From positions 3,161,292 to 3,225,291 of the forward strand of contig BFEA01000002.1 in NCBI GenBank assembly GCA_003427395.1: a stretch of 64,000 nt of DNA, written 5' to 3'. This document shows positions 4,705-53,340 of the stretch, in pieces. The notes under the pieces were generated by a model. That model did no database searches. It was given only the letters and a program-made list of their open reading frames with translations, and was not told the origin of the DNA. This DNA comes from Chara braunii. Its lineage: Eukaryota; Plantae; Charophyceae. The stretch's first letter is position 1; each line of letters begins with the position of its first letter. The position numbers and the translations under genes are program-made.

Positions 4705-4840
4705 TCTGTTCAGTTCGTACACCCACAAACAGTTGAAAAAGTGCGTACACGACTTCGAATCCAGATGGAACCAGATGAACAAGATCCCTGAGTTACCTGG
4801 GGCCGGTCAGTGTCACGATGATTTCTCAAGGCTGTCAACC
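4705..4840 (+). mobile_element. tRNA-derived SINE family A, copy 1
   Basis: Head gttcagttcgtac...cttcgaatccagatgg and shared tail ctgagttacctggggccggtcag...atgatttctcaaggc. Confidence 0.7.
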
Positions 4841-8417: not shown

Positions 8418-9774
8418 TTAAACTATCACATAAAAGAATAAAAAAAAACAAAAAAACAAACACCAAAGACAAACAAACAAACAAACAAGCAAACGCACAT
8501 GAAGCGCATTCCCTTAACCCTTCCTTTCCCATATCCATGCAGTCAATAGCCCCCCGCTCACACGCTGTACATTGATTTACACAGCGGACTAGACAGGACA
8601 GCCCACAAGACAAGCCTTTCTGATAAGAAGCGCTGCGTGTGGGTCACTTGCAGCCTGCCAAGCCGGTAAATCAGCCATCACCCTCTCACCTGTACAGACC
8701 CTCTTTTACAACACTGGAACTCCAAAAATTCGCGGACCCCAACACCTCATCCTCTTTTTCCGATTTACACCGTCATCATCATTACCGCGTTGTCTTGAGA
8801 ACAAGGATCATCAGATTCACCACCACCACCACCAGCCGCAGCCGCAGTAACTGCATACAATCTCGACGCCTTAGATTTTTAGAAGATACCCCTTCTCCGC
8901 ACGACGACTGCAATGCCACGTCTTCTCCCATCTAAGATATCCTCCACATACTTACACTCCCTCCCCTCCCCTCCCCTCGCATTCCTCCTTCCCTATCTCT
9001 TCTTTCCCCCCTAGTCTTCTCACCTAGTACCTACATCAGCCAGGAATTCTCCAGCTGCGTATGGAGAGAAGGGCCAAAGCACTTGGCACGAACGACGCTG
9101 AACCGTGTGCATGTGCCGCACTCACCCACGACCCTCGTGGTCCTTAGTATGTAACATGCGTGATGCTTACTCTCTCTTCCCTGGACAACCAAGCCCCAGA
9201 TATCCGTACTGCTGCTCCCAACGCCTGCCCCCTGATACCCTTCAGCCTGCATTCCTTCCCTCCTGGGCATCCGCGCACACAGTAACTCTCCCCCACTACT
9301 CTGCGAAGAGCAGGGCCTCCACTTCCTCCCTTCCTGGATCGGCATACCGGAGGAGTGTGGCTGATCGAGATCCGAAGAGTCACCCTGCACTTCATCATCT
9401 GGCGCCACTTCACTTCCCGTCTCTTCGGTCGACCGAAGAGGGCCATAAACGTTCGTAAGCGTCTCTTGCCGCAACTTATGCACCAGGATCATGCCGTCGG
9501 CACACCCGGACAGCTTCGCAACAGTATCGTCTGCACTAGCCCATTTGTCAGGGTCTTGGAAAAACTCGGTCGGCACCTGGTGTCTGACCGACCGTACCTC
9601 TTGTACTGGGGTGTCGCAACTCGAAGACGAATCAAACACAAATTGCAGGAACGGTGCGTCCCGCAGGTTCTTGACTATCTGATGGTCAAATCAAAAGTCA
9701 ACACATGAAACAAACCAGGTCCAAACAAACAAACAAACAAACAAACAAACAAACGACTGTGAGTCTAGCCAAGT

Positions 9775-9870: not shown

Positions 9871-10600
9871 CACACAAAACAAATCATGTCCAAAATCAAT
9901 GAAACAAACAAACACTGTGAAATACTCCACCAAGTCGAGCAGAATCAAATCCAGAATCAAATCGAGAATCAAATAGAGGATCAAATAAATCCGGGATCAC
10001 ATCCAGGATCAAATCCAGAAGCAGATCCTGAATGAAATCCAGAACCGAGTCCAGAATCAAGTCCACACCGATCCTCTGCAACCAGCAAAACCAATCCCAG
10101 CAGCGCACTGACTGTGCTCTCTTCATCCATTACTTTGGGCCTCGCCACACCACCGTCGGAACCCAAAAAAGAATGAATGTATCTTCCCCAGAAAGCGGTG
10201 AGATGTATCCGTTGCTATTCCATAGTAACGGGTGCATCTTGCCATTCTTTGCGGGAAGATGCACTTTCTTTTTTCGAATCGACAGTGGTGTTGTGGTGAG
10301 GCCCTTTCTCCTCCGCATCAAAGCAAATTATTGGGCAGTAGGCACACAAAGGATAGTGAATACCAGATCAATAGCCATGTTCTGACTCACCGAATGGATC
10401 TCACTGTTCTCACATCAAGATCCACCAACACTGCCACCAATAACACAGCAATAACACAGCAATAACACAGCAATAACACAGCAATAGCACAGCAATAACA
10501 AAACAATGACACAGCAATAACAAAATGAATGACAGTTTGACTTGTAGCAGCAGTAGATATGTGTGAAGAGGGCGAAACAGTAGTAGTATTAGAGGAACCA

Positions 10601-10717
10601 CCGTCTTCACCCAGATACAACACCAACGCCTTGTCATTCTCGCAGCATCTGGACTGAAAGTTGCCCCAAAAACAGCGATAATGACCTGGCAGGTGTTCCA
10701 TTCAGATGAAGATGGTA
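10601..10717. mobile_element. ~110-bp palindromic MITE, TA-CCGTCTTCACCCG family
   Basis: ccgtcttcaccc...gatgaagatggta; interior matches the copies at 54001 and 60548. Confidence 0.75.
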
Positions 10718-11075
10718 GTCCCAGCAGATACCGCATAGAGAACAACTCAAGGACAGGAAGGAATAGCAGCACCAGGTCAGGACCACTAGAACAGCAAGGA
10801 GAAAGTGTACAAACCACTTCCAGGGCAAGGGAGCAACAGCGGCGGCTGCGGTACGATCAATGATATTGCCAAATGACTGTCTAGGCTTAAGAGTAGTGGT
10901 AGGTAGATACACTGAAAGGTGAATTTGAGCAAAGAATATGGCTAACTTTTTCGAAAGGGGTTTAAGGGGGGCAAAAAAAAAAAAAAAACCAGGAGTGGCC
11001 ATGCTCAGGCAGTAACAGCGTCAATAAGAAGAGATTCCAGTAGCGACGGTGTGCAGGCACTACCAATCTATCCTT

Positions 11076-11185
11076 CCGTCTTCACCCAAATAGAACGCCC
11101 GGTCACCCAAATAGCTGTATACGGGGCAACATTCAGTCTGGATACAGCCATAATGACCGGGCACTCTATACGGGTGAAGACGGTA
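11076..11185. mobile_element. ~110-bp palindromic MITE, same family
   Basis: ccgtcttcacccaaatagaacg...cgggtgaagacggta. Confidence 0.8.
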
Positions 11186-11324
11186 GTGACTAAGTTCATT
11201 AACAAAATACCTGTACCTGGGCAGCAGTAGAATGAGTGCCAGCGGGTGCTGGTCGCAGTTGCAAGCGCTTTTCTTTGTTCTTTGTTCTTTGTTCTTTGTT
11301 CACCCTATATTTCCTTTTCTTTGA

Positions 11325-11897: not shown

Positions 11898-12044
11898 GAA
11901 AACGATATATTCTCATACAGTGAGCTGTTACCCTTCATGATTTTATCCTCTTCATCTCTAATAGTAGCTGGATTCGACACCATTCTTTCGATTATCCTTT
12001 TTGTCTTTTTTTTTTCTTCTTCCTCCCTTTTATTAATATACAAC

Positions 12045-12191
12045 GGCGACCGGCGTTGAGATATTGCCGTTCAGCTGAGCGGCCCCAAGGTACTTCAGAA
12101 ATTTTGGTTTCATTCGTCTAGTTCCATCATCTGGATTCGAACTCGGGTCTGTATTTCAACAGTCCATGGACGTACCAACTGAGCTAGGCTC
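12045..12191 (-). mobile_element. SINE family A, copy 3
   Basis: Reverse strand has A-box tagctcagttggta and B-box gagttcgaatcc, then the family tail and an A-rich tract. Confidence 0.8.
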
Positions 12192-12619
12192 GTTGTTAGA
12201 ACTTAAAACTCTTCTTTTAGCTCCCGCGTTAATGTCAATGCAGTTAATAATGTTCCTTGCTGTTGATTCGTGCTTTCCAGTCTTTTCTGTTTATCTACGG
12301 GGGACAGTAGGACTTTTTTCCACTACCCTCTGGATGTAATTGCAGTCAGATCCGTCCAGATCTGGCCGCAATCACGGTCATATACATTTCGACACGCGCT
12401 AGTGTGAATATGCCCGAAATCCCGTTTTCAAGTTGATCTGACATAAGGACTTTTTTCCACTACCCTCTGGATGTAATTGCAGTCAGATCCGTCCAGATCT
12501 GGCCGCAATTACGGTCATATACGTTTAGACACGCGCTAGTGTGAGTATGCCCGAAATCCCGTTTTCAAGTTGATCTAACATATGCGGCACGCCGGAGATA
12601 AGAGAAACTCTAGAAGAAA

Positions 12620-12945
12620 GGCAGTTGGTACAGTGTCACCCCCCCTGGACTGAACTGTTAAAATATAGTTCAGTTGGTACACCCCCCCTGGACTGAACTG
12701 TTGAAATATAAACCCGAGTTCGAACTCCAATGGAAGCAGATGAGTGAAATACTACAATTCTCGATTTATGCGTGTCATCCCTGCGCAGGGGCCATGTTAA
12801 TCTCCCTTCTCTGTATCGTCCCAATTTTAACGGATGTCCCCAAGGACAGATAATTACTACCTAGGGAAAAAAAAAATAATAAAAAAAATAATAATAATCT
12901 CTGAGTTACCTAACAAGGGCCGGTCAGTTCGATGATGACGGGCCT
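12620..12945 (+). mobile_element. SINE family A, copy 4 (duplicated head, interrupted by an antisense U6 copy)
   Basis: Head tagttcagttggtac...ccgagttcgaactc; tail ctgagttacc...gggccggtcagttcgatg at 12901-12935. Confidence 0.7.
12755..12847 (-). pseudogene. U6: U6 snRNA-derived copy, near full length
   Basis: Reverse strand gtccttggggacatccgttaaaattgggacgatacagagaag(gga)gattaacatggcccctgcgcagggatgacacgcataaatcgagaattg matches plant U6 including the ACAGAGA box; small insertion and no 3' U tract. Confidence 0.9.
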
Positions 12946-14617
12946 CACCACATTACTCCCCGCATGTGCAAAAAAAACCTATTGCATGTATCTTCAGGGA
13001 AAACATAGACAGATACACTCGCAATAGGTTTTGTCTTTTTCACATTCCGTGATTTGTGTTTGGAGTGGTGTTTGGCGATGCCCGATAACTCAAGACCGTC
13101 GGCCTTTTCTTAGAAAGAAAAAAGAAAAAACGAAAAAAAAAGAAAGGGGGAATGAAAGGGAAGAAAGGGAAAAAAAAAGAGAAATCGTTCAAGCTCCCGA
13201 GTGGGAAGCCCGTGCTGAACTGTCATGGAGAGCTGCTGCGGCTCGGCTTCTTCACGCAGCAAGCAGTTTCAAGGGCGTACTCACACGAGCTCTATCTAAA
13301 ATGTATCTGGCCGCATTTACGGCCGGATCTGGACGTATATGACCGCAATTACGTCCAGAAACAAAAAAAAAAAAAAAAAAGAGAGAAATAAGGTTGGAAA
13401 TTGGAACAATACCTCTAGAGGACGAAACCAACGCTCGTAATCCATGAGGACCTTTGCACACACAACGTTCCGCATGCCTGCATCAAGCACGAAGCAGAGG
13501 AGCGACAGCTGTTAGGAGAAGCATGTAGGAGGGAAGAGGAGCAACAAGCCGGAAGGGCCGACGACCGCCTGTGACCGACTGTAGTATAGTATATTATTGA
13601 TATATATATCGTCACAAGAGTATCAGAGCGCAAATGCGAACAAAAAGGAAAAAAGAAAGAAAACCAAGAAAAAATGAATTCAGTTTTTTATCTCTTCCTT
13701 ATAACTCCCCCTATTATAACTCCCCCTGTTCAGAAACTCTTGCGTACAAGGCCGCCCACGTGGATGTAGTAGGTTGAGCGGCGGCTGCCCCCATCCCCGT
13801 GTGTCATATCGACCCACTTGCACACAGCCAAAAGGCAAAGAGGCATATACAAAAAAGGATAGNNNNNNNNNNNNNNNNNNNNNNNNNNNNNNNNNNNNNN
13901 NNNNNNNNNNNNNNNNNNNNNNNNNNNNNNNNNNNNNNNNNNNNNNNNNNNNNNNNNNNNNNNNNNNNNNNNNNNNNNNNNNNNNNNNNNNNNNNNNNNN
14001 NNNNNNNNNNNNNNNNNNNNNNNNNNNNNNNNNNNNNNNNNNNNNNNNNNNNNNNNNNNNNNNNNNNNNNNNNNNNNNNNNNNNNNNNNNNNNNNNNNNN
14101 NNNNNNNNNNNNNNNNNNNNNNNNNNNNNNNNNNNNNGTGAATCTGGCTGCGATCACACTCAGATACGGGGAACGTCGAGTGAATATGCCTTGAGGGAGG
14201 GGGAGGACGGGAGGTTGTAGAAAGGAGAAAAAAGACGTGTGATGTGCTCAACATAATCAAAATATGAATGCCGGCGATTGAACAGAGAGAGAGCAGAAGG
14301 ATGGACGGGTAGTACTGCGACCTTTTAAAAATTAAAAAATTAAAATAAAAAAAACGACCTTTTTTCGGAACTCCTCTGTTTTGCAACGGTTTGTAAAAAA
14401 AAAGGATCTACTGAGTGACAAGAAGATAGGATAAGTCGAGAAATACTATCCGATAAGGACCGCCAGTTCAAGAGAGGGCGATTTCAAAACAACATAAAAG
14501 AGGGCGATTTCTTTTTTCTTTTTTTTTTTTTTTTTTTTTTTTTTAAGGCGATTCCCTGAAAGACGGAGATAGACAGTGCTCTCTCTCTGCACAGGCCCAA
14601 TCTGTTTTATTTGTCCT

Positions 14618-16015: not shown

Positions 16016-16414
16016 CCTGCCGCTCATGGTCACGTAATAGCGACGAATAATTCATCACCTTGCACTCGAAAGTGAAACTAGAGTACACGCATTTGTCACC
16101 TTCTATTTTAAGAAAACTCACTCGGACAAGTTCTATACATCCAGAAATAGTTTCGCTCCGTACGGACGACCAATCTTAATTTCCTTTTCCTTTTTTTTAT
16201 TTTTCTTTTCTCAATTTCTTTTTCTTTTTTTTATTTCTCTTTTCTCAATTTCTTTTTCTTTTCTTCCCTTTTAGATAATAATAATAATAACGACCAATCT
16301 ACCTCTCCAAATCACATAAAATGAAGATTTAGATGGACAAAATCTGCGAGGCCCCACATCTCCGGGCGAACCCCCACGTTTAGTATTTCCCCTTCTTGGT
16401 TTTTATCTTTTTCT

Positions 16415-16575
16415 TAAGGGGCGACTGCCTTGAGATATGACCATTTTCAAACTGACTGGTCCCAGGTAATTCAGAATTACTCTACTGTGTTCATCTGGTT
16501 GCATCTGGATTCGAACTCGGGTCTGTATGTCAAACAGTTCATGGAGTCCTACCAGCTGAGAGCTAACGGGTAGGC
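16415..16575 (-). mobile_element. SINE family A, copy 5
   Basis: gggcgactgccttgagatat...cccaggtaattcag...catctggattcgaactcgggtctgtat. Confidence 0.8.
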
Positions 16576-16608
16576 CCGTTGGGTTTTCTTTTTTTCTTTT
16601 ATTTTTTT

Positions 16609-16717
16609 GTGACCCGATGGACCACGGACCCGATATTAAACTGAGGATCAGATATTAAACTGATCAGAACAGATACTACACTTGATCTATTTTTAGACAA
16701 AAGGCCGAGAAACGTAT
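16609..16717 (-). pseudogene. U2: U2 snRNA 5' fragment with A-rich tail
   Basis: Reverse strand atacgtttctcggccttttgtctaa(aaata)gatcaagtgtagtatctgttctgatcagtttaatatctgat...gtggtccatcgggtcac then A-rich; contains the branch-point pairing sequence GUAGUA. Confidence 0.9.
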
Positions 16718-16924: not shown

Positions 16925-17154
16925 TTCGGGCATTTCCACTTCGATATACGATCATTATCGCTGCATCTGGACTGCAAGTTGTCCCAAATGCAGCTACAAT
17001 GGCCAGCGTTCTATTCGAGTGCCGACGGTGGGACCTGACAATTTCGGTTCAGAAAACACTACACCAAATTCTGAATTACCTAGGGCCGGTCAGTTCAATG
17101 ATCAGATCTCAAGCCCTTCACCCTTTTTCAAAACAAAGAAACAAACAAACAAAC

Positions 17155-17196
<42 letters not shown>
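16925..17196 (+). mobile_element. Degraded CCGT-family MITE followed by a SINE A tail and poly(A)
   Basis: MITE interior catctggactgcaagttgtcccaaa; SINE tail ctgaattacctagggccggtcagttcaatgatc. Confidence 0.6.
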
Positions 17197-17197
<1 letters not shown>

Positions 17198-19960
17198 NNN
17201 NNNNNNNNNNNNNNNNNNNNNNNNNNNNNNNNNNNNNNNNNNNNNNNNNNNNNNNNNNNNNNNNNNNNNNNNNNNNNNNNNNNNNNNNNNNNNNNNNNNN
17301 NNNCCAAAAAAGTATTATTAAAATATTATGTAATTTATGTAAGAGGTTGACTCACCGTTCCCAATCCGAAGCCGACCACCCAAAACAACAGAGTCCACAA
17401 TTCTTCACCGGGTGCCACGTGGAAATTCCCTTCGGCACCGAGGTGGAGGGCATAGATGATGACGTCAAGGAGAAAGCCGCGGAGGAGAATCTGTCACCAG
17501 CGGCAGCTCCTCCATGGCAATCCCACTTGGACACTACTGCACGCGGAACCATTGTCGAGCCTCTCTTATCACAAAGGACGTCAGAGCACCCTGCACCTCC
17601 CGCCGCCAGCGTTGAAGAGACCGCTACCGCCGCAATGTCCATCGGCAAGCCAAGGCGCGAAACCATAACTCCTTCCATTTTGATTACCGGCATCTCCCTT
17701 CCCGATGATACCCTGTGCTTTTGCTCACCCACCTACTTCCGCCGCTACCAGGTATTAAACGGAAGAGTGCTAAGAGTTGGAGGTAGGAACGAGCACACTA
17801 TAACACGCGATGGGCAGGCAGTGTCGGTCAAATTGCGCAACGAATGCGCTCTCCTGCAATCCCACCAAACATCCGACCAATCATCCGACCAATCATTGAC
17901 CAATCATTGACCACATCAGAAGCTGCAGCGAAGTTAGTGAGGAGGAGATGGGTCGGCAGCAGCCCCTATCACTTAACTTCACTGCAATCCACGTCACCTC
18001 ATCTTCCTTCAAAAAGCTATCATGCGCGGCTGAGTCCGCAGCGCAGGCGATTACCGAACCGATCAAAGGGGGCCATTTCTCCCTTCACCTCCTTCCCTTC
18101 GGTACGGAAGAAGTGGATGGGAAAGGCATTCTCAAAGAGCAAACTGCGTTTTTACGAGTGCGTTAACTCTGGTTACGAGTGCGTTAACTCTGGTTACGAG
18201 TGCGATTACCGAACCGATCAAGGGGGGGCATTCCGATAGAGAGAACTGCTACTTCGTGACCATATTCACTACAGGGTGTCACGCGTACGAATTTAGGTAC
18301 GAGCCGTGTGAATGATGAGTGCAAGAACGACAAAAGAGTCAAGACACATCATTCACCATCGTCTCCTCTCCCTCTCCCTCTACCTACTTTGTGTCTCTCC
18401 CTCTCCTCTTTCTTCCTTCCTCTTCTTCCTCCTGCCAGCTTCTCCTCTTCAGGCTTTCGTTCACGTGCGTCCCTTCAGCTCCTCGCTCTCTCTCTCACCT
18501 GCTGGACGATGAACCGACTTACTGTGAGACTCTATTGGCGCGCTTGTGGAAATATAAGTAGGTAGGTACTGCGTACTCCACTCTCGCTCCACCGCACCAA
18601 CCCGCCCGCCGACAGCCTCCTTGGTCAATACCGAAGGGAGGACCGTTTCATCGACCACAAGAGAGGCTGCGGAAGGCGGCCGCGTTGCGCCAGCTCGCGG
18701 AGAGACTCGCAGAGAGCGAGAGACTCGCGGAGAGAGAGACTCAATAAGCAAAAAACACCTGGGGTAGATGTCGGACAGACGAGCGAAATGATGACACGCA
18801 CGCGCAGCACGCACGATGGCCTGCGCGACGAGATTTCTTCTCGAGAGCTTGACACGTGGATTGACTGGTACGGAAAGGGTAACACGTGTATAAGAACAGA
18901 CACACCGACAGACAGAGGCGTGCATGCCCGCCGAGGGCAGAGATGCACACAGGCGGCGAGAAAGCATCAGTCAGGAGGTTTGTGACAATGTACACACGCG
19001 TGTGAAAAAACAGAGCACAAGCAGCACTGATGATACAACTGCCCCCGGACTGTGCGCCCGCCCCGCGAAGGTTTGCGAGAGAGAAGACGAGAGGACGGCA
19101 ACGCGGCAATCCCGCCGGCGAGGACCGCCGCTTCGCGAGCGCCGTGTCACTCGCATGGCGGCATGTTTCGGCGCCGTGGCACCGGCCCGCTATGGCGTGC
19201 TCGGGCGAGTGTGGGCACATGCAGGCGTGTGCTCGAGTCGTGCTCGTCGCGTGCCGAGCGCACTTCGGCCCGCGGCGCTCGGCCGCACAAGCCCGCGCTC
19301 GTGCCACCGGCGGCGGAAGCAAAACCATTTTGTTTGAAAGGCTGGAAGGCGGAGCGAATTCAAACCCCGCTTTCCCTCAGAGGCATGTGAGGTAGAAGAG
19401 CGCCTATCATATGCCGCCACGTCGGCCACTGTACCTCGCCACTGCCAATTTCGGCCAGAATAACGGAAATGCGTGAGCGCCCAAATCCCACAAGCAGATC
19501 CCCGCCTCGCCACTCACGAAATGTAGAGCAAGGGTGACCGCATGTTCACAAACAAGAAAGATCGCAATATACATCGGGGGCTAGGTCCCACTTACACGAA
19601 TTAAGCGATTAAGCGATATTGACCGTAGATAGCAAAGATCAACGGCAAGATTCTCGTAATCCGTGCAAGTGGGACCTTGCCCCGGCAAGTTGGCAATTAC
19701 CATCGTTTGTCGTACTTGTGTGTTGTATTTGCGTGAGGGTGAGCTCGTGGATTGTAAGCCACCCGGCCCCGCGAAGGCGGGAAGTGACGCCTCTGCCGTC
19801 AGATTGATACGCCGAATGATCCTACGGGTAGGACCGAGGCACACGAGAACCAAGGCCATCTTTCTTGGCCTACGTTCGTGCGAACGACCGTATTCGCGTG
19901 GCTCTGGGGACCAGTTGTTTTTTTTTTGTTTTTTCTTTTTAATTTCAATTCTGTATATCA

Positions 19961-19976
19961 CTTTGGCTAAGAGCAA
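19961..19976 (+). pseudogene. U2: U2 fragment, left part of the split copy
   Basis: ctttggctaagagcaa versus U2 cttttggctaagatcaa; continues at 25645. Confidence 0.6.
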
Positions 19977-22900
19977 GGGCCTCTCTGCACTACTCGTGAA
20001 AAGAGCATTTACATGAGCGCCGCACCGCTGCACTTACTCGTGAACTCGGCGCCAGTTTCGTGAGTCAAGAGCTGTCAGATGTCACTCTTGCAAGCGACAA
20101 GAGTTGTCGTCGCTGCACAACTCTTGCCGCGTCACTCTTGAAAATGCACTTCACGAGCTGTCAGGTAGTCGTCAGGCGAAGGCGACTAGAGCGCTCTTGT
20201 TCGCCTGCCTGCAAACCCCGTTTTTGCAAGGGAGATCGGAAGGTTTCTTGAAAGGCCGTTTTTGCAATGCCTTTGCACATGCCTCTTAGAGGCAAGCTGA
20301 GATGTGCCTCATGGAATGTAAGGGGTCTCTGCGACACGAATTATAAACAGAAACGAAACCGTTTAAAATCCTGGATTCATGGAAAAAAATCCAGGTGGCC
20401 TGTTTACAGGAAACCAAATTAGATGAAAAGCGTTGTAGTGAAGTTGAGAACTGGTGAGCCGGCCAACAATTTTGGTCGTCGACTCAAGGCACAAAAGGTG
20501 GGACTGCAATACTCATTCACAGGGACTTAAATGCTGTGATTTTAGACTCAGCGGTTGACTTGTGGGGGCGTTGGGTGTGGGTGAAGTTTGAGGTGGGATC
20601 TAGGGAATGGTCAGTAATGTCGATCTACCGTGACGTTCCGACAGACTATACCGAAAGGTTGAAATTTTTATCTAAATTACCCGGAATTATTCCGGATTCT
20701 GACAACCTTATTATTGCCGCGGACTGGAACACTATATTGAACCCAGGTTTGGACAGCCCGAAAGTAGGCCCCATCGGACCTGATAGCAGGCTTTTACAGA
20801 GTTTCATGATTGCTAATAACCTGGTGGATGCTTATAGAGTACTGAACTCGAACGCTCAGGAATACACGTGGCTTGGGTCTAAGACAACGCCAGCTCAAAG
20901 AAGGTTGGACTTTATTTTGATGAAAGGTCATTCGTGGCAGGAATGTACTTCGGTAGAAATAGTCATGTCGGATATGTCGGATCATAGACCTGTAGTAGCA
21001 GTATTTCACATTTGTGAAGTTCCAAAAAGGGGCCCTTCCTACTACAAATTGAATGTTTCCTTATTAAAAGATCTGGGAGTAATACTATGGGCACAACGTC
21101 AGTTGGCTTTGTGGACGGAGGCCAGAGAACTATTTAGCGTAGAACAAGACTGTCTGGAAGAGGGCATTCACATCGTGCAACGGCCCTTCAATGTGTTCTC
21201 ACAAATTAAGGCGCAATCAATGAAAAATGAGGAAAAATCTATAATAAAAAGGATTAAACTTGCGGAAGATAATTTCGGGCAAGATGATGTATCAGATGTC
21301 TATTGGACAATAGTGAGAAGAAGAAGCTTGGTCAAACTGGAACAGATGCATATTCATGACCAAATGCAGTGGAAGGAATGGCTTGACCAGAGAAATATTA
21401 CTACTGGGGATAGACTTACAAAGGAAACATTCAGACGTTTAATCCTACAAAAAGCCCCACCCCCAATCAAAGAACTTTCACACCCCTTTTCAACCCAACT
21501 TTTAGTATCCAACGATTTACAGCAGATGTGCGAATATGCTAGATTATACTTCGAAGATATCTTTACTATGCATCGCCCATATGATGAGATGGACATGGAT
21601 TTAAAAATCACAAGTACTTTTGGGAATCGTTATCAAAAACTTCTACCCCACAGCGCGCGACTGGATCTAGACAAACCACTGACACTGGAAGAACCGCTAG
21701 TAGCTGCTAAAAGGATGGCGAAAGGGAAATGTCCAGGGGAGGACGGTCTACCAATTGAAGTTTATTTAGCCTTGTGGCCTCAATTGGGCCCCATGTTGCT
21801 CAGTATATTCAACCAAGTTTTAACAGGGGAAAAATTGACAAAAAACATGTCTAAGGGAATCATATCATTGTTATATAAGAAAGGCGATAAAAAAAAGATT
21901 CGTAATTGGCGACGAATTTCACTGTTAAACGCCTCGTATAAGTTGTTGGCTAAGGTCATTTCAATACGTTTAGCTAGGTACCTACCGGACCTTATTGGTA
22001 AGGAACAATGAGCCTTTGTAAAACACAGAAGTATTATGGATAACATAGCTTCAACTATTCAGGCGTTGGAAATCATCACTAAAGATAACCTTGACGTGGC
22101 AACTTTTCTATTGGATATGGAAAAGGCGTATGACCGTGTGGGTTGGGCCTTTGTGATGACTACTTTGAAGCACATGGGTTTTGGGCTCCCTTTCTGCCAA
22201 TGGGTAAAAACGATGTATTCGGGGTCTATAGCCACAGTAATGGTGAATGGTAAACAGTCAAATGAATTCATCCTCACTCGTTCCTTAAGACAAGGCTGCC
22301 CTTTAGCCCCGCTGTTATTCGTAGTTTATTTAGAAATACTGCTGGATAACATCCCCTGGAACTCAGAAATACAAGGATTGAAACTTAAACGGGACTCCAA
22401 TGGAAAGGTGGGGCTCTGACCGATGACTTAACCATTGCATGTCAAAACAAGAAAGAGCAATTAAGAACTTTAATGAGAGTATTAAACGAGTATTGCGACC
22501 TATTTGAGGCCTCTATTAATTGGAATAAGTCAACGTATTTTTTACCACCTTCCTATAATTTTGGAGTGAATTGGGGGTTGAAAGTTGTTCCCGCGGATGC
22601 TTCAGAACGTTTCTTGGGTGTCCAAGTCTCACAATCGGATAACTCAGAGTACCAAGATGCAATTTTGGTAGAGAAATACTGCAGCAGGATTCTGACTTGG
22701 AAGCATACAAGACACTTATCCTTGTTGGGGCGAGCTTTGGTTTTAACTTCAGCAGCACGTTCGATTCTTTGGTTCACGCTGGCGGTTCACTATTTGGGGG
22801 ATCAAACGTATCAGAAGAAAAGCAGCAGGACGCTTCATTTGAAAACCGGAGGCACAAGTGCATGAAGGTCATATGTCGAAGGTAGTCTTGGAGACTATAA

Positions 22901-25644
22901 CCTTCCCAAGACACCAGGGGGGGGGTTGGGATCCTTGACCCTAGACAACAGAACCAAGCTCTGCTGGCAAAATGGCCAATCAAGGCCTTAACTTCCTTAC
23001 ACAATGAACCTTGGTTGGCGCTGGGTCTGCAGATATAGGCAGGAAGACGCTCTGACTTGCTTAATGATACCGTCATATGTGAACAAGCAACTAAAGTCAA
23101 AGTTATGGGGTGATATCTTGAAAGCATGGAAAAAACTCATTCCAACGGAGAGGGAACATCCAACCTCAAGGGACGTCGTGCTGCTTGAAATTCTGTTTGA
23201 AAATCCTCACATTAAAGAAGAAGGGACTAATACTTTTCTAGCGAATGGTTTTGTGGGTCATTTTGGTAAAAGTTGGATAGAAAAGGGAGTAGTTAGGGTG
23301 AGGGACATTTGGGATGAGAATAAGCTGGATTGGATAGAGGTCGTTGAGTTGAAACAGACATTGCCAAGAGTGAGAGGCATTCAACATAAACTGCAAAAAT
23401 TGACAGATGCTATTTCAGATAGTTGGAAGCGAATTCTGCATGCTAATCGACAAAAAAGTTGAAGGCGTTCCCGAATTTTCTTGGTAGAGGCAACTTCGTT
23501 ACACTTAGGATCGCCTCCTATACTTGATGAGGGGCTATGGGTAAGGAAGTGGGATGAAGAAGGGGAGTATGACATATGGCACGTTGTAGGCCCTGCTTTG
23601 GATGGAGGCTTTGAAGGATGCAGGTGACACAAGTCTGAGGATTTTTCCTATACAAACGAAATATACCAAGGTAACAAGGAAAAATTGGATTCTATGGCAG
23701 AACTGCAGGAAGTACTGGTCACGCCGCCTATAGCCAGCAATAGGACTCCTTTGATCCCAATAAGGAGGAAACTGTTAGTGCAAGGACAACCACTCACTTC
23801 TCTTGGTATAAATCCAGAAACAGTGGGTTGGTTTAGTGCGGAGAAGCGCAGAATGGTAGCCATGGTGGAATATAAGTCAAAAGTGGGCACCGACTTTCTT
23901 AGACAAAGGGTTAAGAAATACCCGTTTGCCACAATAGTCAAAAGATGAGCGGAACAGGGTCTTATAGGCACGTCATATGAAGAAATGCAAGACTTGCGGG
24001 TGGAACTTAAGAGTCTCCCATCTCAGAAGTTAGCCAGTATGTTGTAGCTGCAAGCAATTCTAGCCACAACATCAGCAGTGTGGTTAGCAGCGAAAGGCAT
24101 GGAGATAGCTACCACTTGTCCGAAGTGCAGATGGGGGTGGGAGACTACACGACACCTATGACTGACTTGTCCAGCATCGAGACGCGTTTGGGACTGGTGG
24201 ATCTAGTATTGGATAAAATTCACAAAGAACAGTTTTGATTGGTCAGACAAATAGATTCTGACAGGTTGTAGAAAAGGTAGGAACGAATGAAAATATGTGG
24301 CTCAGGTGACCAGAGCGATTATCATGAAGGTAATCTGGGATGACAGGAACAATCCATTGTTTCGGCGACAATGTATATCGGATGTTCAAATCAAGAAGCG
24401 AATTACTGCAAACCTATGAAGGAATATGATTTGTGACTTGAACAGACGTACATCCCGTGGAATTGGTCCAAATCAAAGGAAATGGTTCAATGAGACCTGG
24501 GGGAGGAATTCAGAGTTGCTACTAGTAGTGGTGGATGACAGGGGAAAGCTTTCCTTTTGCTCTTGGTTATTGACCATGATAGGTCATGGGGAACACATTA
24601 GTACCCCACCTTAAGCAGAATGGTTCTCCTTTCCTGTGTTGTCAGTTTTGTGAGGTTGACACTCCTCCACGTCTCATTTCACGTCTACCTGTTGGGTCCT
24701 GTATTATAGTGTTGGTGACATTAAGGGGGGCAGGTAGTTGTGATAGGGAGGTTAGGTGCAGACCTGTGTGTATCTAAACTCTCATCCTTTTTCATGAGTT
24801 TAAATGCTATTTTTTGGAGAAGTCCTTAGTTGAGGGACAAGCGTGGAGACGCTGGACCCAGTTTCCAGTATTGAGCCGATTCTGGATAATGGCCCCAGCA
24901 TTCCGGGTAGAATTGTGAGGTCCCCGGCCTCAACTTGTTCTTTGATAATAAAGCTTCAACACTTTCTTCCCCCCCCCCCCCAAAAAAAAAGGCCGCCAGA
25001 TTTCAAGAGCGAGCTGGGTCTGGACGGGCAACACACGCGCTGGCTGTCGTTTAGTGCTTCAAGAGCACTCGTGAAGGGCTCATATTCACACTACCGTGCG
25101 TGGTCCCACCGTGGTGGAACCGTGATTTCTTAAATGGCATGTACTATTCCTTGTTTTCGGTTCAGGTGGGGGAAGGGGCGGCGGACAGTGGATGCGGAGT
25201 GTGCCCAATGGCGGAGGGGCGGAAAGCGGCTGAGGATCGGGCGTGTACAACTCCCGGTTTTCAAACCAAGGGGGGGGGGGCTGACAGTGGCTGCGGAGTG
25301 TGGCCAGTGGCGGGGCAGAAAGCGGCTGAGTATCGGGCCTGTACAACTCGCAGTTTTCGGACCAGGGGAGGGGGGAGTGGGGTGCGGGGAAGCACAGTCC
25401 TCCACAGTGCGTGCTGTTTCGTGGTGGTGGGGAATCCCGGTACTACCGAGTCCCAGAACTGCCTAGAGTTCTACCGTAGCTGCACTACTCGTGAAGTCGG
25501 TGTCAGCCTCTCAAGAGCAACTCATGAGGAAAACTGCCTAGAGTAAGTGCAGCGAGGACCGAACTCTAGGCCGTTTCGGGACTCTGATAACTCTAGGCGC
25601 ACTCGTGATTTTTTTCATGAGTCATGAGTAGTGCAGCGAGACCC
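19977..25644. mobile_element. Non-autonomous PIF/Harbinger-type DNA transposon carrying a nested LINE
   Basis: 23-bp TIRs (gggcctctctgcactactcgtga and reverse complement gggtctcgctgcactactcatga, 20/23), CAA on both sides, CTCGTGA/CAAGAG subterminal motifs in both arms. Confidence 0.8.
20305..24990 (+). mobile_element. L1/Tx1-clade LINE ORF2 (APE endonuclease and reverse transcriptase), 5'-truncated and pseudogenised
   Basis: WNVRGL, CLQETK, ADWN, RRLDF, SDHRPV (APE); KCPGEDG, NWRRISLLNASYK, LDMEKAYDRV, LRQGCPLAPLLF (RT); C-terminal CPKC; stops and frameshifts; A tail at 24982-24990. Confidence 0.95.
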
Positions 25645-25710
25645 CAAGTGTAGTATCTGTTTTGATCCGTGGTCCATCGGACCACGTTTAAAAAAAAAAA
25701 AAAAAAAAAA
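25645..25710 (+). pseudogene. U2: U2 fragment, right part of the split copy, with poly(A)
   Basis: caagtgtagtatctgttttgatc-cgtggtccatcggaccac followed by about 21 A. Confidence 0.8.
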
Positions 25711-28700
25711 GGACCAGAGGGCTAAGTCCATGCTCACGGGAGCGCGCCGGCCGGCGCCCGGAACGCCCAAGTTGCGCTTGCAGTTTAACGCTGCTATGGT
25801 CCCTCGCGTAGCGCACAGCCATGATGCGCTAGCGAGAGTGTAGCCTCCTCGGTCGGCAATAACCGAGCAACCAACCCGCGTGGGAAGGGAGGTAGGGGCC
25901 ATATAGACCGGCCACATAGCCAGTCAGTGTTATCATCATGAGAAGTTGATATACTCGTACACGTATTGTAAGAGAAGGGTGTCTGCGAGCGCCACACACA
26001 GAGGCGCCTGCCTTTGACGTGAACATAGCGAGTAGAAGGAAGGAGAGGGACAAAAATAGCAACATTAGAGGCTCAACACGAGTCAGCTGAGCGAGGTATC
26101 AAGGATGGACCAGGGAAACCGTCAGGCTCGTCCGGAGGCAAACGAGGTGCCGCTATCTGCAGAAGACCAGATCACGGTATACAACTGCTAATAGCGAAAT
26201 GTTATGAGGATGGGGTTTTCCCAGAGAATTTACGCCATAGAGAGTTTGTCATGGAGAACGGTATTCACATTTTTTCAAGGTTAATCCACAAATCAACACA
26301 CTAACCACGGTGTGTCTCAAGGAGAGGACAGTGACGGTGATTTTCCAGGGAGAAGCGAGAGACCTACCGATGAGGACCAAAGAAGACCTGATTCGGGCAT
26401 ACGAGAATGGCTGGCTAAGGAAGAAGACGTTTGCAAGAGGGTTCAAGAGAGGGAGGGTCCATGAAGAAGGGCCCAATGTGATGTCATACGTTGCTAAATC
26501 GAGGCAGGTGGCTCAATGGCTAGTGGCGAAGGCAGACGATGTGGTGGTGATTAGAGGAGTGGAGTATAAGATGCTATTTGAAGCATGGATGGCAAGGACA
26601 GAGTTAGAGGAGCAAAGAAGACGAGATGGTGAAACTAAGTTTTAGGTCATAGCTTTGAGAGTACCACTGCGTGCTATGTTCCATGTGGGCGATTTGATTA
26701 CCCAAGTGTTGGGCCTTATCATTACATGTCACCCCCCAGAGCCAAATGCCACACGCCCGAAGCTTATGAATTTGAAATTCGAACTTGCACGGGAAGCGGA
26801 AGAAAAGTTTGAGGCGATCCTCCCAATGAAGCTCAACCATGGTGAGTTATACAACGTACAACTTGTCAATAAGAACACGCCATGGTGCACTCGGTGCAAA
26901 TGGTGGTTCCATACGGAATCGGACGGTTGTCCAAAAACCGATGTAGTCAGAGGTCGCAACCATGGCCCTCAACAAGGCGAAGTGGTATTCGACAAAGGGA
27001 TCAGATCGGTGGCCAGAGATCAACACATTGTTCCCTCAAGTGGAGGAGAGTTCAGCAAGGCAGCGACAAGAAGACAAGGGGGGTTCGACCACCTAGGAAG
27101 CAGACCAGGAGATCAGGCGGCTGCTCCGATGGGACATCTCCCAAGTATACAGCAACTCGGGCAACATTGACTGAGAGAGCTATATCAGCCGGCGTCGGGG
27201 GAGCACTCGAGGCAAGCAGATATCCGATTAGGATCATGGACACTGATCCCAGGTGCCAGTGATCCGTACCTAGCGGCCATGAATGCTCTTTGTCCGTGGC
27301 CATAACCACAAAACGAGGCAGCCAGATACGGCCACTCGACGAATCATGCAATCAACGGTCTACAAGGAGGAAGTCAATACCTCTTGCCAGGGCACCACCC
27401 TGGCAAGGGGCAGGGCCAATCGGCATTTTCGAGACCAGGACAGGAGATGATGGGCCCTTTACCAGGGGTGGTAGAGAGAGTGGTGGGAATTGACGGATAC
27501 GGAGATGGAAGAAACCAGAACACCATTAGGGCCAGTCGTCAATTCCCCAACAAGAGCACAGTGAAACTTCCCAGAGGGAAGGAGGGGATGTAGGTGGCTC
27601 ATGAAATCCGATTCCGAATGGGGTAATTACTCGTGATGTGGGGGAGTAGCAGCCAGAGGAGAAGCTGCTATTGCCTCTAATCTGTACTCTCCTCGGATAG
27701 GAACCTTACATTCTCGGATTGGTAAATAGGCTAGGAGAGACGGTCTTTCCATCTACGTCCTTATGCGGGGTTCCCACTCCATACCTGATTGAGTCTAGAG
27801 TAAGACAAACTTATGCTAATTACTTTTGCTTTAGAATTTTCCCAGAGGATCCTCTCACGGTGGACACACCGGCAGGTAAATGCCTGAAGTTCTTTATTCC
27901 ATTGATAGATGCAAGAATTTCGATGCAACACTGGGCGGGCTTGCCATCGATAGGGTTAACGCGTATGCCCCTCCACCTACTACTAGGAGTTCCGAGAAAC
28001 GAACTTGATAGTGTGTTAGTAAAACCAGGGATCTCCACTTCCTTTCTCAGAACTCTAGCCTGTCGCAGGAGAGGGAAGGTACCGTCTAGTCAGATCACGT
28101 CCGGATCCAAGTGGAAAACGAGACGCCAGGCACTGGGGATGGGGAAAATTAAAGTAGGTACATGGAATGTGAAAGGACTGCGCGATACCGAGGGAAAGCA
28201 AAAGGGAAAGCGGTTGAAGAGGTGGATTCAAGAGAGAAGAGTAAACATCATGTTCGTGCGAGAGACGAAGTTGTCAGAAGCTAAATTAGCACAACTCACA
28301 GATTGGTGTGATGACCCTCAACTCTGGTCCCCGACATGGGGCACTAGAGGAGGGATGACCATCTTAGTCCGAAAAATCTTAAGCACAGAGCTCATTGATT
28401 TTGAGTCGGACTTATGGGGTAGATGGGTGTAGCTAAAACTCATGATTGATGATGTTGAGACAGTAGTAGCTACAGTTTATGCACATAACAAACTGAAAGA
28501 TAAACTTTTATTTATTAAATTTCTCCCTTACTGCTTACCGAGGACAAAAAATATGATAATAGGGGGAGATTGGAACTTGGTGTGCACTCCTGGCCTGGAT
28601 TCAGAAGTCGAAGAGGGCCTAAAAAAAGATAGAGAAGCTTTTCTTCTATGAACGGAAGCGTGGGGCCTGACGAACATCTTCAGGGAGCTATACCCCTTAA

Positions 28701-39085: not shown

Positions 39086-39299
39086 CGGGCAAAATCTTAG
39101 TTTGCCTGCATCCTTTCCTTTTTTTCCTGCTTTTTTTTTTTTTTTTTTTTTTTTTAAATCTTGCAGGAAAGTCTGGCTTAAGAGAACGTAAGAGAGTATC
39201 CTGCCTGAACTGAGTTTGCGCCTTACTCAAGTAGGTACAAAGAACGAATCCTTGTTTCTTTCTCATTATTTCCCTTTTCACTTCGCATTCCCTTAATAA

Positions 39300-42705: not shown

Positions 42706-42785
42706 GTCCTTCGGGACATCTGTTAAAATTGGAACGATACGTAAAAGATTAGCGTGGCCCTGCGCAGGGGTGACGTGCGAAGATT
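42706..42785 (+). pseudogene. U6: U6 snRNA-derived copy with mutated ACAGAGA box
   Basis: gtccttcgggacatctgttaaaattggaacgatacgtaaaagattagcgtggccctgcgcaggggtgac. Confidence 0.88.
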
Positions 42786-44989
42786 AAGGAGGGGCAAGGG
42801 GTATTTGAGCTCCTTACCTGTCGTCTGCGGGTTGCATCCGCCGTCCAACCGCCCCGCGGGTAGCCGGACCACTATCCGCTGCCGGGCCGCGAGTAGTCGG
42901 TCGTGGAAAGGAAGAAACTTGTGAGCCAAGTCCGAATCTGGGCGGAAAGTCGCACCGGGGGGGGGGGGGGACGGTCGGCGAGTAGCGGGGAGCCAGGCGG
43001 AGGGGCAGCGGGCACTGCGTAGAGGTACAGTCGGCAGCGGAGGCGACAGCGCAGTGGGGTCGAGCGCTTGGGCAGTGGCGAACAGGCGGTCAAGGGAGTA
43101 AGAAGGGAAAGGCGGTAAGGAGAGACAACAACCACTGTAGCGCCAGTATCAAGCCGAGGTAAGTAAGGGAAGAGGGAGAGAGTCAGGGCGTACCTTTGTA
43201 CTCGGTCCGTTCGAAGGAAGGCGGAGCCGGTGAAGAGGAGGAGACGAACGAAGTAGGGAGAGAAAGTAAAGTGAACCTGGGCGACGAATCACGCCAGGTG
43301 CATGCACAAAGAAGGGGGAGATGGCGGGGAGGAAATGGTGGGATCCGCCCGTTTCTTGACGAAATCGGAAGGGGAAGGAGCCTTTTCGGGGGTTTTTTAG
43401 TAAGGCGAGCACGGATATGAGGTTAGTTTGGTTGATTAGACAGTAGGATAAGAGGTTAGTAGGAAGAAGCCTGCGAGGAGCCCATGGTGGGAAAAGAGCG
43501 GGGGAGAATAAGGAAATGTTATCTCCCTCGTTTCTGACTTGATTCATATGGGGGAGGGCACGATTTAGACATTTTTTGACAGGGCGAGTTCGGGTATGGT
43601 GTTAGTTTTGGCGTTAGATTAGTGGAGAGGAGGTTAGTAACGAAATGGGGTGCGTCGAGCTATGGCCGACGTGAGAGAAAACGGAAGAAAACACATCCCG
43701 CTCGTTACTTAATGGAATCGAGCGGGGGAGGACTCAGAATGGGGGTTTTTGGCTATAGCGACCCCATTTATGCAATCAGAATTAGTAGTGGGTTAGTAAA
43801 TAAGAAGTTAATAGGAGAATAGTGTGCGCGGTGATGTCGGGAGTGGGAGAGAAGGAGAGGTTGTCAGTCAGTCGAGGAACTTGGGTGAAGAGGGGATTCG
43901 GGAGGGAAGACTTGAATTCTGAGTGAGTAGATTTAAGCTGCGAAGTGGGCCGGGCTGCGTGGCTGCAGGCTATGTGAGAGAGGGGAAGGGACAAAATCTG
44001 AACGAATCTTTTCGCGTTTTAGCGAAAGATTCATTTTGATAAAGGTGGTCAGTTCCTAGCATGCTGAATGTGCGACTAGGCGGCATACGTCTGGCGGGGA
44101 ATTTGATCGGATGCCCGCCGTACTCGGGGGAGAGCAGCTTGAGGGGAGCCGTACGAGTTGGGGACTTACCAATTGGCCGGTGCGTGGTTCCGATTACCGA
44201 AAGAAGTAGCCTTGCTCCGTATTTCCCCGGAGGTGGATGAGCGGCAATGCATCGCCCCTCGTGTTGGCGGAAGATCCATTCCGAGGTGCTGCCCGCTCCG
44301 GTTGTAGTGATCCTCCTGTGCCTTAGTCACCACTGGCTTTCAGACGAGCGTGGCCGTGGAAACGCTGCGCACGCAGAGAAAACCAGAAGAAGAGGGGAAG
44401 TGGTTGCTATGGGATTGAAGACCGCCAGCTAACCTGTGTGCAAAGCCGCGAGGGAGCTAGTCGTGTTGTTGAAGAGTCTGCCCGCTGGTCGGGCGTCACG
44501 GCTGTAGAGCCCAGATCTATGTGCCTGCTGCTTTCCTACTAAGCTACTGCTACATGTGCACCCAGGCGTCTTTGGTTCTGGCCAGCTGTTAAAGTATTGT
44601 GTTGAGTGTTGCGGTCTGACGTCACGAGCTGGTACACCGAAGAAGGTGGCTGCTGCAGGCAGTTCCGGGCTTGTTGCTGTGTGTTCCGCTGCCTATCTCA
44701 GCAACACTTTCAGCGACAGCCAATATTGAGCTTACTGTGTACTGGGCTGTTGGGCTGATCTGAGTACGGTCGTTTGGGGACCGTACGACTGCAGGTCCAC
44801 TTTNNNNNNNNNNNNNNNNNNNNNNNNNNNNNNNNNNNNNNNNNNNNNNNNNNNNNNNNNNNNNNNNNNNNNNNNNNNNNNNNNNNNNNNNNNNNNNNAA
44901 ACGAAGGTGTAGCGTGAAAGGAAGGGGGATGAGTGGAACTACAATGGGGTTGTTGCCGCAACCTGGAGGAGTGGTTGCAAAGGAGATTA

Positions 44990-48675: not shown

Positions 48676-49171
48676 GGGTCTGATCCCACCACTACACTAC
48701 AGCCCAGTTACACTGTAGTTTTGGGATCCCACAACGTGTTACACTGTAGTTTCGGGATCCCACCACTACACTACGGTTGTGGAGTTCGCCGAAATATTTT
48801 GCACGCATTTCGTAGCACGCCCGCGAAGGGCTCGAGCAAAGTTACTACATTTTTTGTGTAGACGGTTTGGGCACAACGGCCGCGAAAAAGATGGAACAAT
48901 TTTTTTTTTTTTTTTTTTTTTTTCAGTTGTCCGTCCAGCCCGTTAGGAACGTCCGAGGTCCACATGCGCGTGTGACATGTCGTCTGGCGGTACAACGGAA
49001 ATGTCTGCCCTAAAAATGCAGCCCACGGAAAGTCGCCGCGGGTCCAGGAAAACCACCGAGAAAGTCGGTGTCGTCGGATCCGCTTTCTGTAGCCGGGCCC
49101 GTAGCTGACGCTGGCACTATTGTAGTGCTTTTTCGTCACTACTTGCGTAGTGTAGTGGTGGGATCAGACCC
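48676..49171. mobile_element. PIF/Harbinger (Tourist-like) MITE
   Basis: Perfect 25-bp TIR gggtctgatcccaccactacactac with TAA on both sides. Confidence 0.9.
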
Positions 49172-49582: not shown

Positions 49583-49613
<31 letters not shown>

Positions 49614-50118: not shown

Positions 50119-50179
50119 CAGACTGTTTCGTCGGACTTTCACCGACTCATCAGGAGGTTGAACCTGGACAGACAGTCTG
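50119..50179 (-). ncRNA. Type III hammerhead ribozyme motif, stem I slightly damaged
   Basis: Reverse strand cagactgtctgtc-caggttcaacctc-CTGATGA-gtcgg-tgaaagt-ccgac-GAAA-cagtctg. Confidence 0.75.
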
Positions 50180-50692: not shown

Positions 50693-50767
50693 CCAGGAAA
50701 GGAGGTAATGAGCGATTCCCGTGTTTTTTTTTTTTTTTTTTTTTTTTGTTCCCTTTTTTTTTCCTGA

Positions 50768-51043
50768 AAGGGCGACGGCCTTGAGATATCATAGTTGAGC
50801 TGACCGGCCCCAGGCAATTCGTAAATACTTGGTTTTATTCATCAAGTTCCATCATTTGGGTTCGAGCACTGGTCTGTATGAGCATCGCCACACCACTCTC
50901 GAAATGCGCAAAATGAGAATGAACTTGCCGCTAGAACATGGCCAGATGCACCCGCCACATTTTTGTCGTTTTCACATTTCGAGAGTGGTATGGCGAGGCA
51001 CTATATTTTAACGTTTGATGGGTGTACCCACTGAACTAGGCTC
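50768..51043 (-). mobile_element. SINE family A copy interrupted by a MITE
   Basis: Family tail and head flank the insertion. Confidence 0.75.
50879..51001. mobile_element. ~123-bp MITE with TA duplication inside the SINE
   Basis: TIR gcatcgccacaccactctcgaaatg / catttcgagagtggtatggcgaggc. Confidence 0.8.
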
Positions 51044-53276: not shown

Positions 53277-53340
53277 GTCCCTTCGGGACATCAGTTAAAA
53301 TTGGAACGATACACAAAAGATTAGCATGGTCCAAATTTGT
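53277..53340 (+). pseudogene. U6: U6 snRNA-derived copy with internal deletion, followed by an A-rich tract
   Basis: gtcccttcgggacatcagttaaaattggaacgatacacaaaagattagcatgg joined directly to the U6 3' end tccaaattt. Confidence 0.88.

What the first reader, a model, noticed from the sequence alone, without database searches (positions are those of the whole stretch)
19961..25690. A U2 copy split by a Harbinger-type transposon that carries a LINE
Seen: removing 19977-25644 and one CAA rejoins ctttggctaagagcaa with gtgtagtatctg, restoring U2 just upstream of the branch-point pairing sequence. The element has 23-bp TIRs and holds a 4.7 kb LINE. Established: snRNA targeting is known for Dada DNA transposons and Keno/Utopia retrotransposons. 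A U2 preference in a Harbinger-type family would be new to me.
Basis: partly seen in the sequence, partly recalled or inferred. Interest (0 to 1): 0.7.

Follow-up and report, generated by a model that had tools for sequence, protein, structure and literature searches.

The report
Nested transposons in dead U2 copy
A short multicopy DNA transposon, itself holding a broken LINE, sits inside a truncated, poly(A)-tailed copy of the U2 spliceosomal RNA; other copies of the transposon have unrelated neighbours, so it likely landed there by chance and is ordinary nested junk DNA.

Summary
The anatomy is real; the U2-targeting idea is not supported. 19977-25644 has 23-bp inverted ends and a duplicated CAA, and splits a U2-derived sequence at U2 nt 28-30. 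A 4,729-bp 5'-truncated, broken L1-like LINE lies inside with an 8-bp duplication; without it the element is 931 bp and shows no transposase. The U2 is no gene: it lacks nt 1-14, 16 nt of stem IIa and everything after nt 84, and ends in A21. It is one of three U2 and three U6 relics in this window. At the window's U2-relic density, chance gives 0.2-1.4 such hits for 50-400 copies. 'Harbinger' holds only loosely: 3-bp duplication and GG ends, but no TWA and no transposase. A weak U2 hotspot is not excluded (about 6%).

The parts
19908..19914 (+). Left copy of a 7-bp direct repeat (GGACCAG), likely target-site duplication of the U2 retrocopy
   Evidence: 7-mer shared by chance in 0.5% of random window pairs; search windows chosen after seeing it
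19915..19960 (.). T-rich stretch inside the outer duplication; origin unexplained (5' inversion or a separate poly(T) insertion)
   Evidence: inference
19961..19976 (+). Left part of the U2 fragment (U2 nt about 15-30), ending in the first CAA (19974-19976)
19977..25644 (.). Non-autonomous TIR DNA element, 931 bp without the LINE, multicopy, with many short subterminal repeats
19977..19999 (+). Left terminal inverted repeat
   Evidence: 7-8 contigs per run break at 19977
20251..20258 (+). Left copy of the LINE's 8-bp target duplication
   Evidence: LINE-less copies run on from 20258 into sequence like 24996 onward
20259..24987 (+). 5'-truncated L1-like LINE: ORF2 remnant from about 20309 (endonuclease, RT, C-terminal Cys/His knuckle near 24119), broken by stops and frameshifts; C/A-rich tail
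24988..24995 (+). Right copy of the LINE's 8-bp target duplication
25175..25375 (.). 96-bp tandem repeat (2.1 copies) inside the DNA element
25622..25644 (-). Right terminal inverted repeat
   Evidence: 20 and 15 contigs break at 25644
25645..25685 (+). Second CAA and right part of the U2 fragment (model nt 28-84; branch-point pairing sequence and stem IIb kept, 16 nt of stem IIa missing)
25690..25710 (+). A21 tail of the U2 retrocopy
25711..25717 (+). Right copy of the 7-bp direct repeat

Best explanation
A truncated, poly(A)-tailed U2 copy is split by a 0.93-kb multicopy TIR element with a CAA duplication, and that element holds a broken 4.7-kb LINE; the three likely came together by successive, untargeted insertions. 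Step 1 (inferred): a LINE reverse transcriptase copied a 3'-shortened, A-tailed U2 RNA into the genome, as for the other snRNA relics here. Step 2 (structure shown, mobiliser inferred): a non-autonomous cut-and-paste element, probably of the PHIS/Harbinger-like superfamily, was moved in trans by a transposase encoded elsewhere and inserted with a 3-bp duplication. Its family appears to favour a short C-NNN-G context rather than U2; this site fits the right half of it. Step 3 (structure shown): a LINE inserted into this one copy with an 8-bp duplication and decayed; whether before or after step 2 is not known.
For: Other copies have mixed flanks: left ends 7, 8, 8 contigs (agreement 0.50, 0.47, 0.50), right ends 20 and 15 contigs (0.40, 0.42); random flanks give 0.445 (n=8), 0.376 (n=20), 0.392 (n=15). 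Depth over 19952-19968 equals the locus's own contig in X1 (15.2) and X3 (7.32) and is 0 in X4, so no second laid copy has the upstream U2 flank in those runs. Reverse-orientation U2 insertions: majority rows match 7-10 of 30 (left) and 6-7 of 16 (right); 2 of 8 left or 4 of 20 right U2 flanks would give about 21 of 30 and 13 of 16. U2-like contigs that start at 25645 continue upstream in other sequence, U2-like in the X2 majority, not in the element (5 and 9 contigs). Two further U2 and three U6 relics lie in the window, two with 12-14 bp flanking duplications; 8 and 7 contigs end at the same U2 position with poly(A). Chance expectation 0.17-1.4 for 50-400 copies. The element/LINE junction contig has single-copy depth and depth falls from 530-1090 to 25-37 at 20258.
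Against: Only majority rows were seen, not single flanks; 100 and 76 loose-end rows were not shown; the four runs are two samples of one study and probably the data behind this window, so the ends are counted again in each run. Agreement is slightly above random in all five rows and the right rows match reversed U2 a little more than random (6-7 of 16 against 4.1 +/- 1.7), so 1-2 U2 flanks among 15-20 cannot be excluded. A same-orientation U2 flank at the right end would not appear as a loose end. The chance estimate uses the density of this window (2 other copies; range 0.02-5); summed contig depth over the U2 part suggests only about 100 near copies, which would make chance far smaller if it were complete. 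The U2 copy at 55870 has a 6-nt insertion at the same CAA.
Confidence: 0.88

Rival explanations
1. The family has a real but minority preference (hotspot) for U2 nt 28-30, on top of general insertion.
For: The hit lies in the conserved U2 core, 3 nt before the branch-point pairing sequence and about 10 nt from the Keno/Utopia site (downstream U2 starts at nt 39; PMC4640811, passages). The U2 copy at 55870 carries a 6-nt insertion at the same CAA that reads as a short inverted copy of the flank, like an excision footprint. Right-end majority rows match reversed U2 at 6-7 of 16 (random 4.1 +/- 1.7).
Against: No second U2 junction seen among 7-8 left ends and 15-20 right ends per run; 95% upper bound on the targeted share about 10-31% (assumes 0 of n). 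The 55870 copy has other small insertions as well and the 16717 copy a duplication, and PIF/Harbinger elements generally excise without footprints (PMC4561436, abstract). The host here is a dead fragment, not a gene.
Confidence: 0.06
2. Strict U2 targeting, as Dada does for U6/U1 or Keno/Utopia for U2.
For: One insertion in U2-derived sequence.
Against: All other ends seen lie in non-U2 sequence. Dada has 6-7 bp duplications and no TIRs (PMC3706591, passages); this element has 3 bp and TIRs.
Confidence: 0.01
3. (Compatible with the best explanation.) The host is not a one-off pseudogene but a member of a U2-derived, SINE-like repeat family: U2 5' domain to about nt 84 plus poly(A).
For: This copy and the copy at 16717 end at the same U2 position before an A-tail; 8 and 7 contigs do likewise. 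The copies at 16717 and 55870 share the same 5-nt insertion in stem I, which suggests a common source.
Against: The copy studied lacks that 5-nt insertion; a shared 3' end can also come from a recurring U2 decay intermediate; snRNA copies with poly(A) and duplications are known in mammals (PMC4494074, passages). No genome was available to count subfamilies.
Confidence: 0.2
4. (Classification only.) The element is not PIF/Harbinger proper but another 3-bp-duplication group (Pangu- or Nuwa-like PHIS, or a CMC-like element).
For: Duplication here is CAA, not TWA. Majority letters of other copies: C at -4 (3 of 3 rows), G at +4 (2 of 2 rows), a T-rich triplet ending in T. Pangu: ANT and TIRs starting AG or GG; NuwaII: C|TNA|G (PMC4482050, passages). 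Many subterminal repeats.
Against: The rows leave out ends whose flank matches this locus by chance (left flanks ending in A, right flanks starting with C), which hides TWA on the left; one X1 contig does extend over AA at 19975-19976, with T before it, giving TAA. No transposase to place on a tree.
Confidence: 0.4

Closest known systems
Non-autonomous PIF/Harbinger (Tourist-like) and other PHIS elements
   Same: Short TIRs starting with G, 3-bp duplication, small non-coding element, many copies, short sequence preference at the target (PMC4482050, PMC5738225; passages).
   Different: Duplication CAA, not TWA; majority of other copies looks T-rich within C...G; no transposase seen; 931 bp.
snRNA retro-pseudogenes (U1/U2/U6 copies with poly(A) and target duplications)
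   Same: 3'-truncated, A-tailed, flanked by a short direct repeat (PMC4494074, passages).
   Different: Here in what is likely a charophyte alga, dense (six relics in 63 kb), with a recurring U2 end near nt 84 and an unexplained T-rich 5' part.
Dada DNA transposons
   Same: DNA transposon found inside an snRNA sequence.
   Different: Dada targets U6, U1 and tRNA genes strictly, makes 6-7 bp duplications and has no TIRs (PMC3706591); none of this holds here.
Keno and Utopia retrotransposons
   Same: Insert in the conserved 5' part of U2.
   Different: They are non-LTR retrotransposons with downstream U2 starting at nt 39 (PMC4640811); here a DNA element at nt 28-30. The LINE here sits in the DNA element, not in U2.
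L1/Tx1-like LINEs; Tx1 in Tx1D, SINEU-3 in Mariner-N4
   Same: APE-type endonuclease plus RT, short target duplication, inserted in a non-autonomous DNA transposon (PMC4494074).
   Different: No evidence that this LINE family prefers the DNA element (its 3' junctions were not examined); clade not tested by a tree.

Membership tests
PIF/Harbinger (strict) | 3-bp target-site duplication | tested here: met
   CAA on both sides; U2 has a single CAA at this place. Only one copy has both flanks.
PIF/Harbinger (strict) | Duplication is TWA | tested here: not met
   CAA here; majority rows of other copies end in T, with a selection bias; one contig has TAA.
PIF/Harbinger (strict) | Short TIRs starting with A or G | tested here: met
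   23-bp arms starting GGG; termini confirmed by contig breaks.
PIF/Harbinger (strict) | DDE transposase plus Myb/SANT ORF (in the element or its autonomous partner) | not testable with these tools
   Longest stop-free frame of the 931-bp part is 163 codons with no Pfam match; no genome held to seek a partner.
Pangu / NuwaII (PHIS) | ANT duplication, or C|TNA|G target | tested here: inconclusive
   Majority letters give C at -4, G at +4 and a triplet ending in T; this copy has CAA with G at -4 and G at +4.
snRNA-targeting transposon (Dada-, Keno-, Utopia-like behaviour) | Most copies flanked by the snRNA at one fixed site | tested here: not met
   7-8 left and 15-20 right ends per run have mixed non-U2 flanks.
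Dada | 6-7 bp duplication, no TIRs | tested here: not met
   3 bp and 23-bp TIRs.
Functional U2 gene | Full 5' stem, stem IIa, Sm site, 3' domain | tested here: not met
   Only model nt about 15-84, 16 nt missing, then A21.
snRNA retro-pseudogene | Truncation, poly(A), flanking direct repeat | tested here: met
   A21 and a 7-bp repeat; the repeat encloses a T-rich stretch, so its assignment is probable, not certain.
L1-group LINE | APE endonuclease followed by RT, A-rich tail, target duplication | tested here: met
   PF03372 E 5.7e-5, PF00078 E 9.8e-14; 8-bp duplication.
L1-group LINE | Clade by RT phylogeny (L1 versus Tx1) | not tested
   No tree built.

The most novel reading that the evidence does not exclude
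A PHIS/Harbinger-like TIR family in a charophyte alga uses U2 nt 28-30 as a recurring hotspot (a minority of its copies, plus excision footprints such as the 6-nt insertion in the U2 copy at 55870), which would be the first U2 preference in a TIR-bearing DNA transposon that my searches could find.
Probability: 0.06. Interest if true: 0.6.

Novelty: new member of a known kind. Interest (0 to 1): 0.15.

Why it matters
As found, little: it is a clean example of nested insertion in a repeat-rich genome, and a warning that a transposon inside snRNA sequence means nothing where snRNA retrocopies are dense. [quoted passage not shown] The side observation, abundant U2 5'-domain copies with a common 3' end and a shared 5-nt insertion, may deserve a genome-wide look of its own.

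Tried and rejected
No whole genome is held, so single flanks could not be collected and no logo was built. The window holds no second copy of the TIR family: of 6 matches to the TIR core at up to 3 mismatches, 4 lie in the element's own non-LINE part, 1 in the LINE and 1 at 55922, the last two with 3 mismatches (2.2 expected by chance). Metagenome scans: 0 hits for the degenerate TIR; 2 hits for the exact right TIR 19-mer, both with no similarity beyond 20 nt and judged chance. Earlier findings of the scan: nothing by place, sequence or words. Paper searches: 'harbinger + snrna + target specificity + dna transposon' gave 4 papers (listing; one, PMC4494074, read in passages), 'dada + u2 snrna + ...' 2, 'chara braunii + harbinger + transposon' 1 (listing), 'chara braunii + snrna + transposable elements' 5 (listing); none of what I saw reports a U2-preferring Harbinger or these relics, but subscription papers and Repbase Reports are not searched. 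A search for a recalled longer PIF target motif found 0 papers, so that comparison was dropped. Considered and rejected: true termini at the internal CACTA motif (contigs break at the GGG/CCC ends); a Helitron 3' end for the hairpin at 25667-25686 (it is U2 stem IIb, also present in the copy at 16717); an amplified element-plus-LINE composite (junction contig at single-copy depth). Summed contig depth was used only as a rough guide; the tool states it is no copy number.
Full report
Question.

The anatomy holds. The arms at 19977-19999 and 25622-25644 are 23 nt and 87% complementary. Of flank lengths 1 to 11, only 3 gives a direct repeat, CAA. Rfam places 25645-25685 on U2 model positions 28-84, weakly (24.8 bits, E 0.66) because 16 positions of stem IIa are missing. 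The 13 nt left of the first CAA agree with the Rfam consensus line at 11 of 13 positions in register (counted by eye; binomial P 1e-5). The cut is thus at U2 nt 28-30, 3 nt before the branch-point pairing sequence. Inside the element, 20259-24987 lies between two copies of AAAGGCCG and codes for pieces of an endonuclease (PF03372, E 5.7e-5) and a reverse transcriptase (PF00078, E 9.8e-14), broken by stops and frameshifts. Its 8 best of 16 protein matches are named Chara braunii proteins at 36-42% identity, so the organism is likely a charophyte alga (inference). Without the LINE the element is 931 bp; its longest stop-free frame (163 codons) has no Pfam match.

The U2 is a relic. It lacks nt 1-14, part of stem IIa, the Sm site and the 3' domain, ends in A21, and a 7-bp repeat (19908-19914, 25711-25717) encloses it together with a T-rich stretch (chance 0.5%, windows chosen afterwards). 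The window holds two more U2 relics (16578-16717 minus, Rfam 60.8 bits; about 55870-55970 plus, found by self-BLAST and pattern, not by Rfam) and three U6 relics. Of three other relics tested, two have 12-14 bp flanking duplications with 2 mismatches and one (55870) none. snRNA copies with poly(A) and duplications are a known product of LINE machinery (PMC4494074, passages).

The test of targeting. No genome is held, but four public runs hold the stretch (X1-X4; two samples, one study). Left end (19850-20330, all 4 runs, 80% likeness): 116-127 contigs laid per run. Summed depth over the element is about 35-150 times that of the locus's own contig (a rough guide only). In X2, X3 and X4, 7, 8 and 8 contigs stop at exactly 19977 with loose flanks whose majority agreement is 0.50, 0.47 and 0.50. 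A copy inserted in U2 in the same direction would have aligned on into 19961-19976; depth in 19952-19968 equals the own contig in X1 (15.2) and X3 (7.32), is 0 in X4, and 13.5 in X2 (own contig not listed). Right end (25555-25689, runs X1 and X2 only): 20 and 15 contigs stop at exactly 25644, agreement 0.40 and 0.42. Simulation with random window sequence gives 0.445 (n=8), 0.376 (n=20) and 0.392 (n=15). For insertions in the opposite direction, the majority rows match the expected reversed U2 at 7, 9, 10 of 30 (left) and 7, 6 of 16 (right); random gives 7.7 and 4.1, two U2 flanks among 8 would give 20.7, four among 20 would give 12.7. So at most one or two, perhaps three, of the 15-20 right flanks and at most one of the 8 left flanks could be U2; none needs to be. 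The only listed contig that bridges element and U2 is the locus's own (records 8 and 16). Limits: only majority rows are shown, 100 and 76 loose-end rows and 458 and 286 pieces were not shown, the runs re-count the same loci, and a same-direction U2 junction at the right end would not show as a loose end.

Is chance enough? The two other U2 relics cover 0.34% of the window's 63,347 known bases; for 50, 150 or 400 element copies, 0.17, 0.51 or 1.4 hits in some U2 relic are expected (range 0.02-5.0), and 0.008-0.06 within a given 5-nt site. No site was named in advance, so the first figure is the fair one. It depends on this window being typical; summed depth over the U2 part (about 1,000-1,400 in X1 against 7-15 for one copy) would mean only about 100 near copies, but the 41-nt query carries a deletion and probably misses most relics (inference). 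The majority letters of the other copies are C at -4 and A at -5 on the left (3 of 3 rows), G at +4 and T at +5 on the right (2 of 2 rows): a short palindromic context around a 3-bp centre. The U2 site has the G and T of the right half, which would raise its odds modestly without any U2 recognition (inference from majority rows only).

What kind of element? Ends and duplication length fit the PHIS superfamily. PIF/Harbinger proper has TWA, Pangu ANT with TIRs starting AG or GG, NuwaII C|TNA|G (PMC4482050, passages; barley Harbingers prefer TAA, PMC5738225, passages). This copy's CAA fits none; the majority triplets end in T, with a bias because flanks that match this locus by chance are shifted to rows not shown. 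Without a transposase the group cannot be fixed.

The LINE is a passenger of this copy. Contigs leave the window at 20258 and continue in sequence like that after 24995 (2-3 contigs in X2, X3), depth drops from 530-1090 to 25-37, the junction contig has single-copy depth, and other LINE copies extend upstream of 20278, so this one is 5'-truncated at the start of ORF2.

The relic at 55870 has a 6-nt insertion at the same CAA that can be read as an inverted copy of the flank, like a footprint. But it carries other small insertions, the 16717 copy has a duplication, and PIF/Harbinger elements generally excise precisely (PMC4561436, abstract). Agreement values and right-row matches are a little above random. 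These leave a small chance of a minority hotspot.

Comparison. Dada targets U6, U1 and tRNA genes with 6-7 bp duplications and no TIRs (PMC3706591, passages). Keno and Utopia are retrotransposons whose downstream U2 starts at nt 39 (PMC4640811, passages). My searches showed no U2-preferring Harbinger, so the claim would be new if true; the data say it is probably not true. Supplements of these papers were not read.

Verdict. Real nested insertion of three known kinds of element; U2 targeting not supported. Interest 0.15.

Noticed in passing
window 16578-16717 (-) and about 55870-55970 (+): Two U2 relics share the same 5-nt insertion in stem I just before nt 25; a common source (U2 variant gene or U2-derived SINE-like master) is likely. 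In run X2 the majority of 9 U2-like contigs has the ordinary form.
   Followed up: partly
window 25685 and 16609; contigs: U2 copies repeatedly end at the 3' side of stem IIb (about nt 84, before the Sm site) and go on in poly(A): 2 window copies, 8 and 7 contigs. May record a recurring U2 decay intermediate.
   Followed up: partly
window 55897-55907: 6-nt insertion at the same CAA of another U2 relic, readable as an inverted copy of the flank (footprint-like); the same relic has an 8-nt insertion further on.
   Followed up: partly
window 12743-12847 (-), 42706-42806 (+), 53277-53332 (+): Three U6 relics; the last has an A-rich tail and a 14-bp flanking duplication with 2 mismatches.
   Followed up: partly
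window 50120-50174 (-), 59004-59059 (-), fragment 60446-60504: Two type III hammerhead ribozyme matches (43-44 bits, just under the gathering score of 48.5) in a dispersed repeat; possibly retrozyme- or Penelope-like (label from recall).
   Followed up: no
window 11998-12200, 16393-16560, 17067-17197, 50715-50880, 4710-4836: A dispersed repeat with a tRNA-like T-loop motif at one end and long A-tails, probably a tRNA-derived SINE family (by eye; ARAGORN finds no tRNA gene).
   Followed up: no
window 14508-14544, 39131-39155, 48900-48923, 49583-49610, 55819-55842, 56955-56977: Many pure 23-28 nt poly(T) runs, at least one (56955) inside a 31-bp direct repeat: likely tail-only retro-insertions.
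   Followed up: no
window 10596-10720, 11073-11187, 53999-54111, 60547-60656: A family of about 110-bp palindromic elements (MITE-like).
   Followed up: no
window 51256-52884 (+): 542-codon open frame with WD40 repeats (PF00400 E 1.6e-8), probably part of a host gene.
   Followed up: no
window 9031-9690 (-): Open frame with a weak DUF7804 match (E 1.7e-5, below cutoff).
   Followed up: no
window 20259-20277: 19 nt between the LINE's left duplication and the point where other LINE copies join (20278); begins with 9 nt also found at 20221-20229, possibly templated from the target.
   Followed up: no
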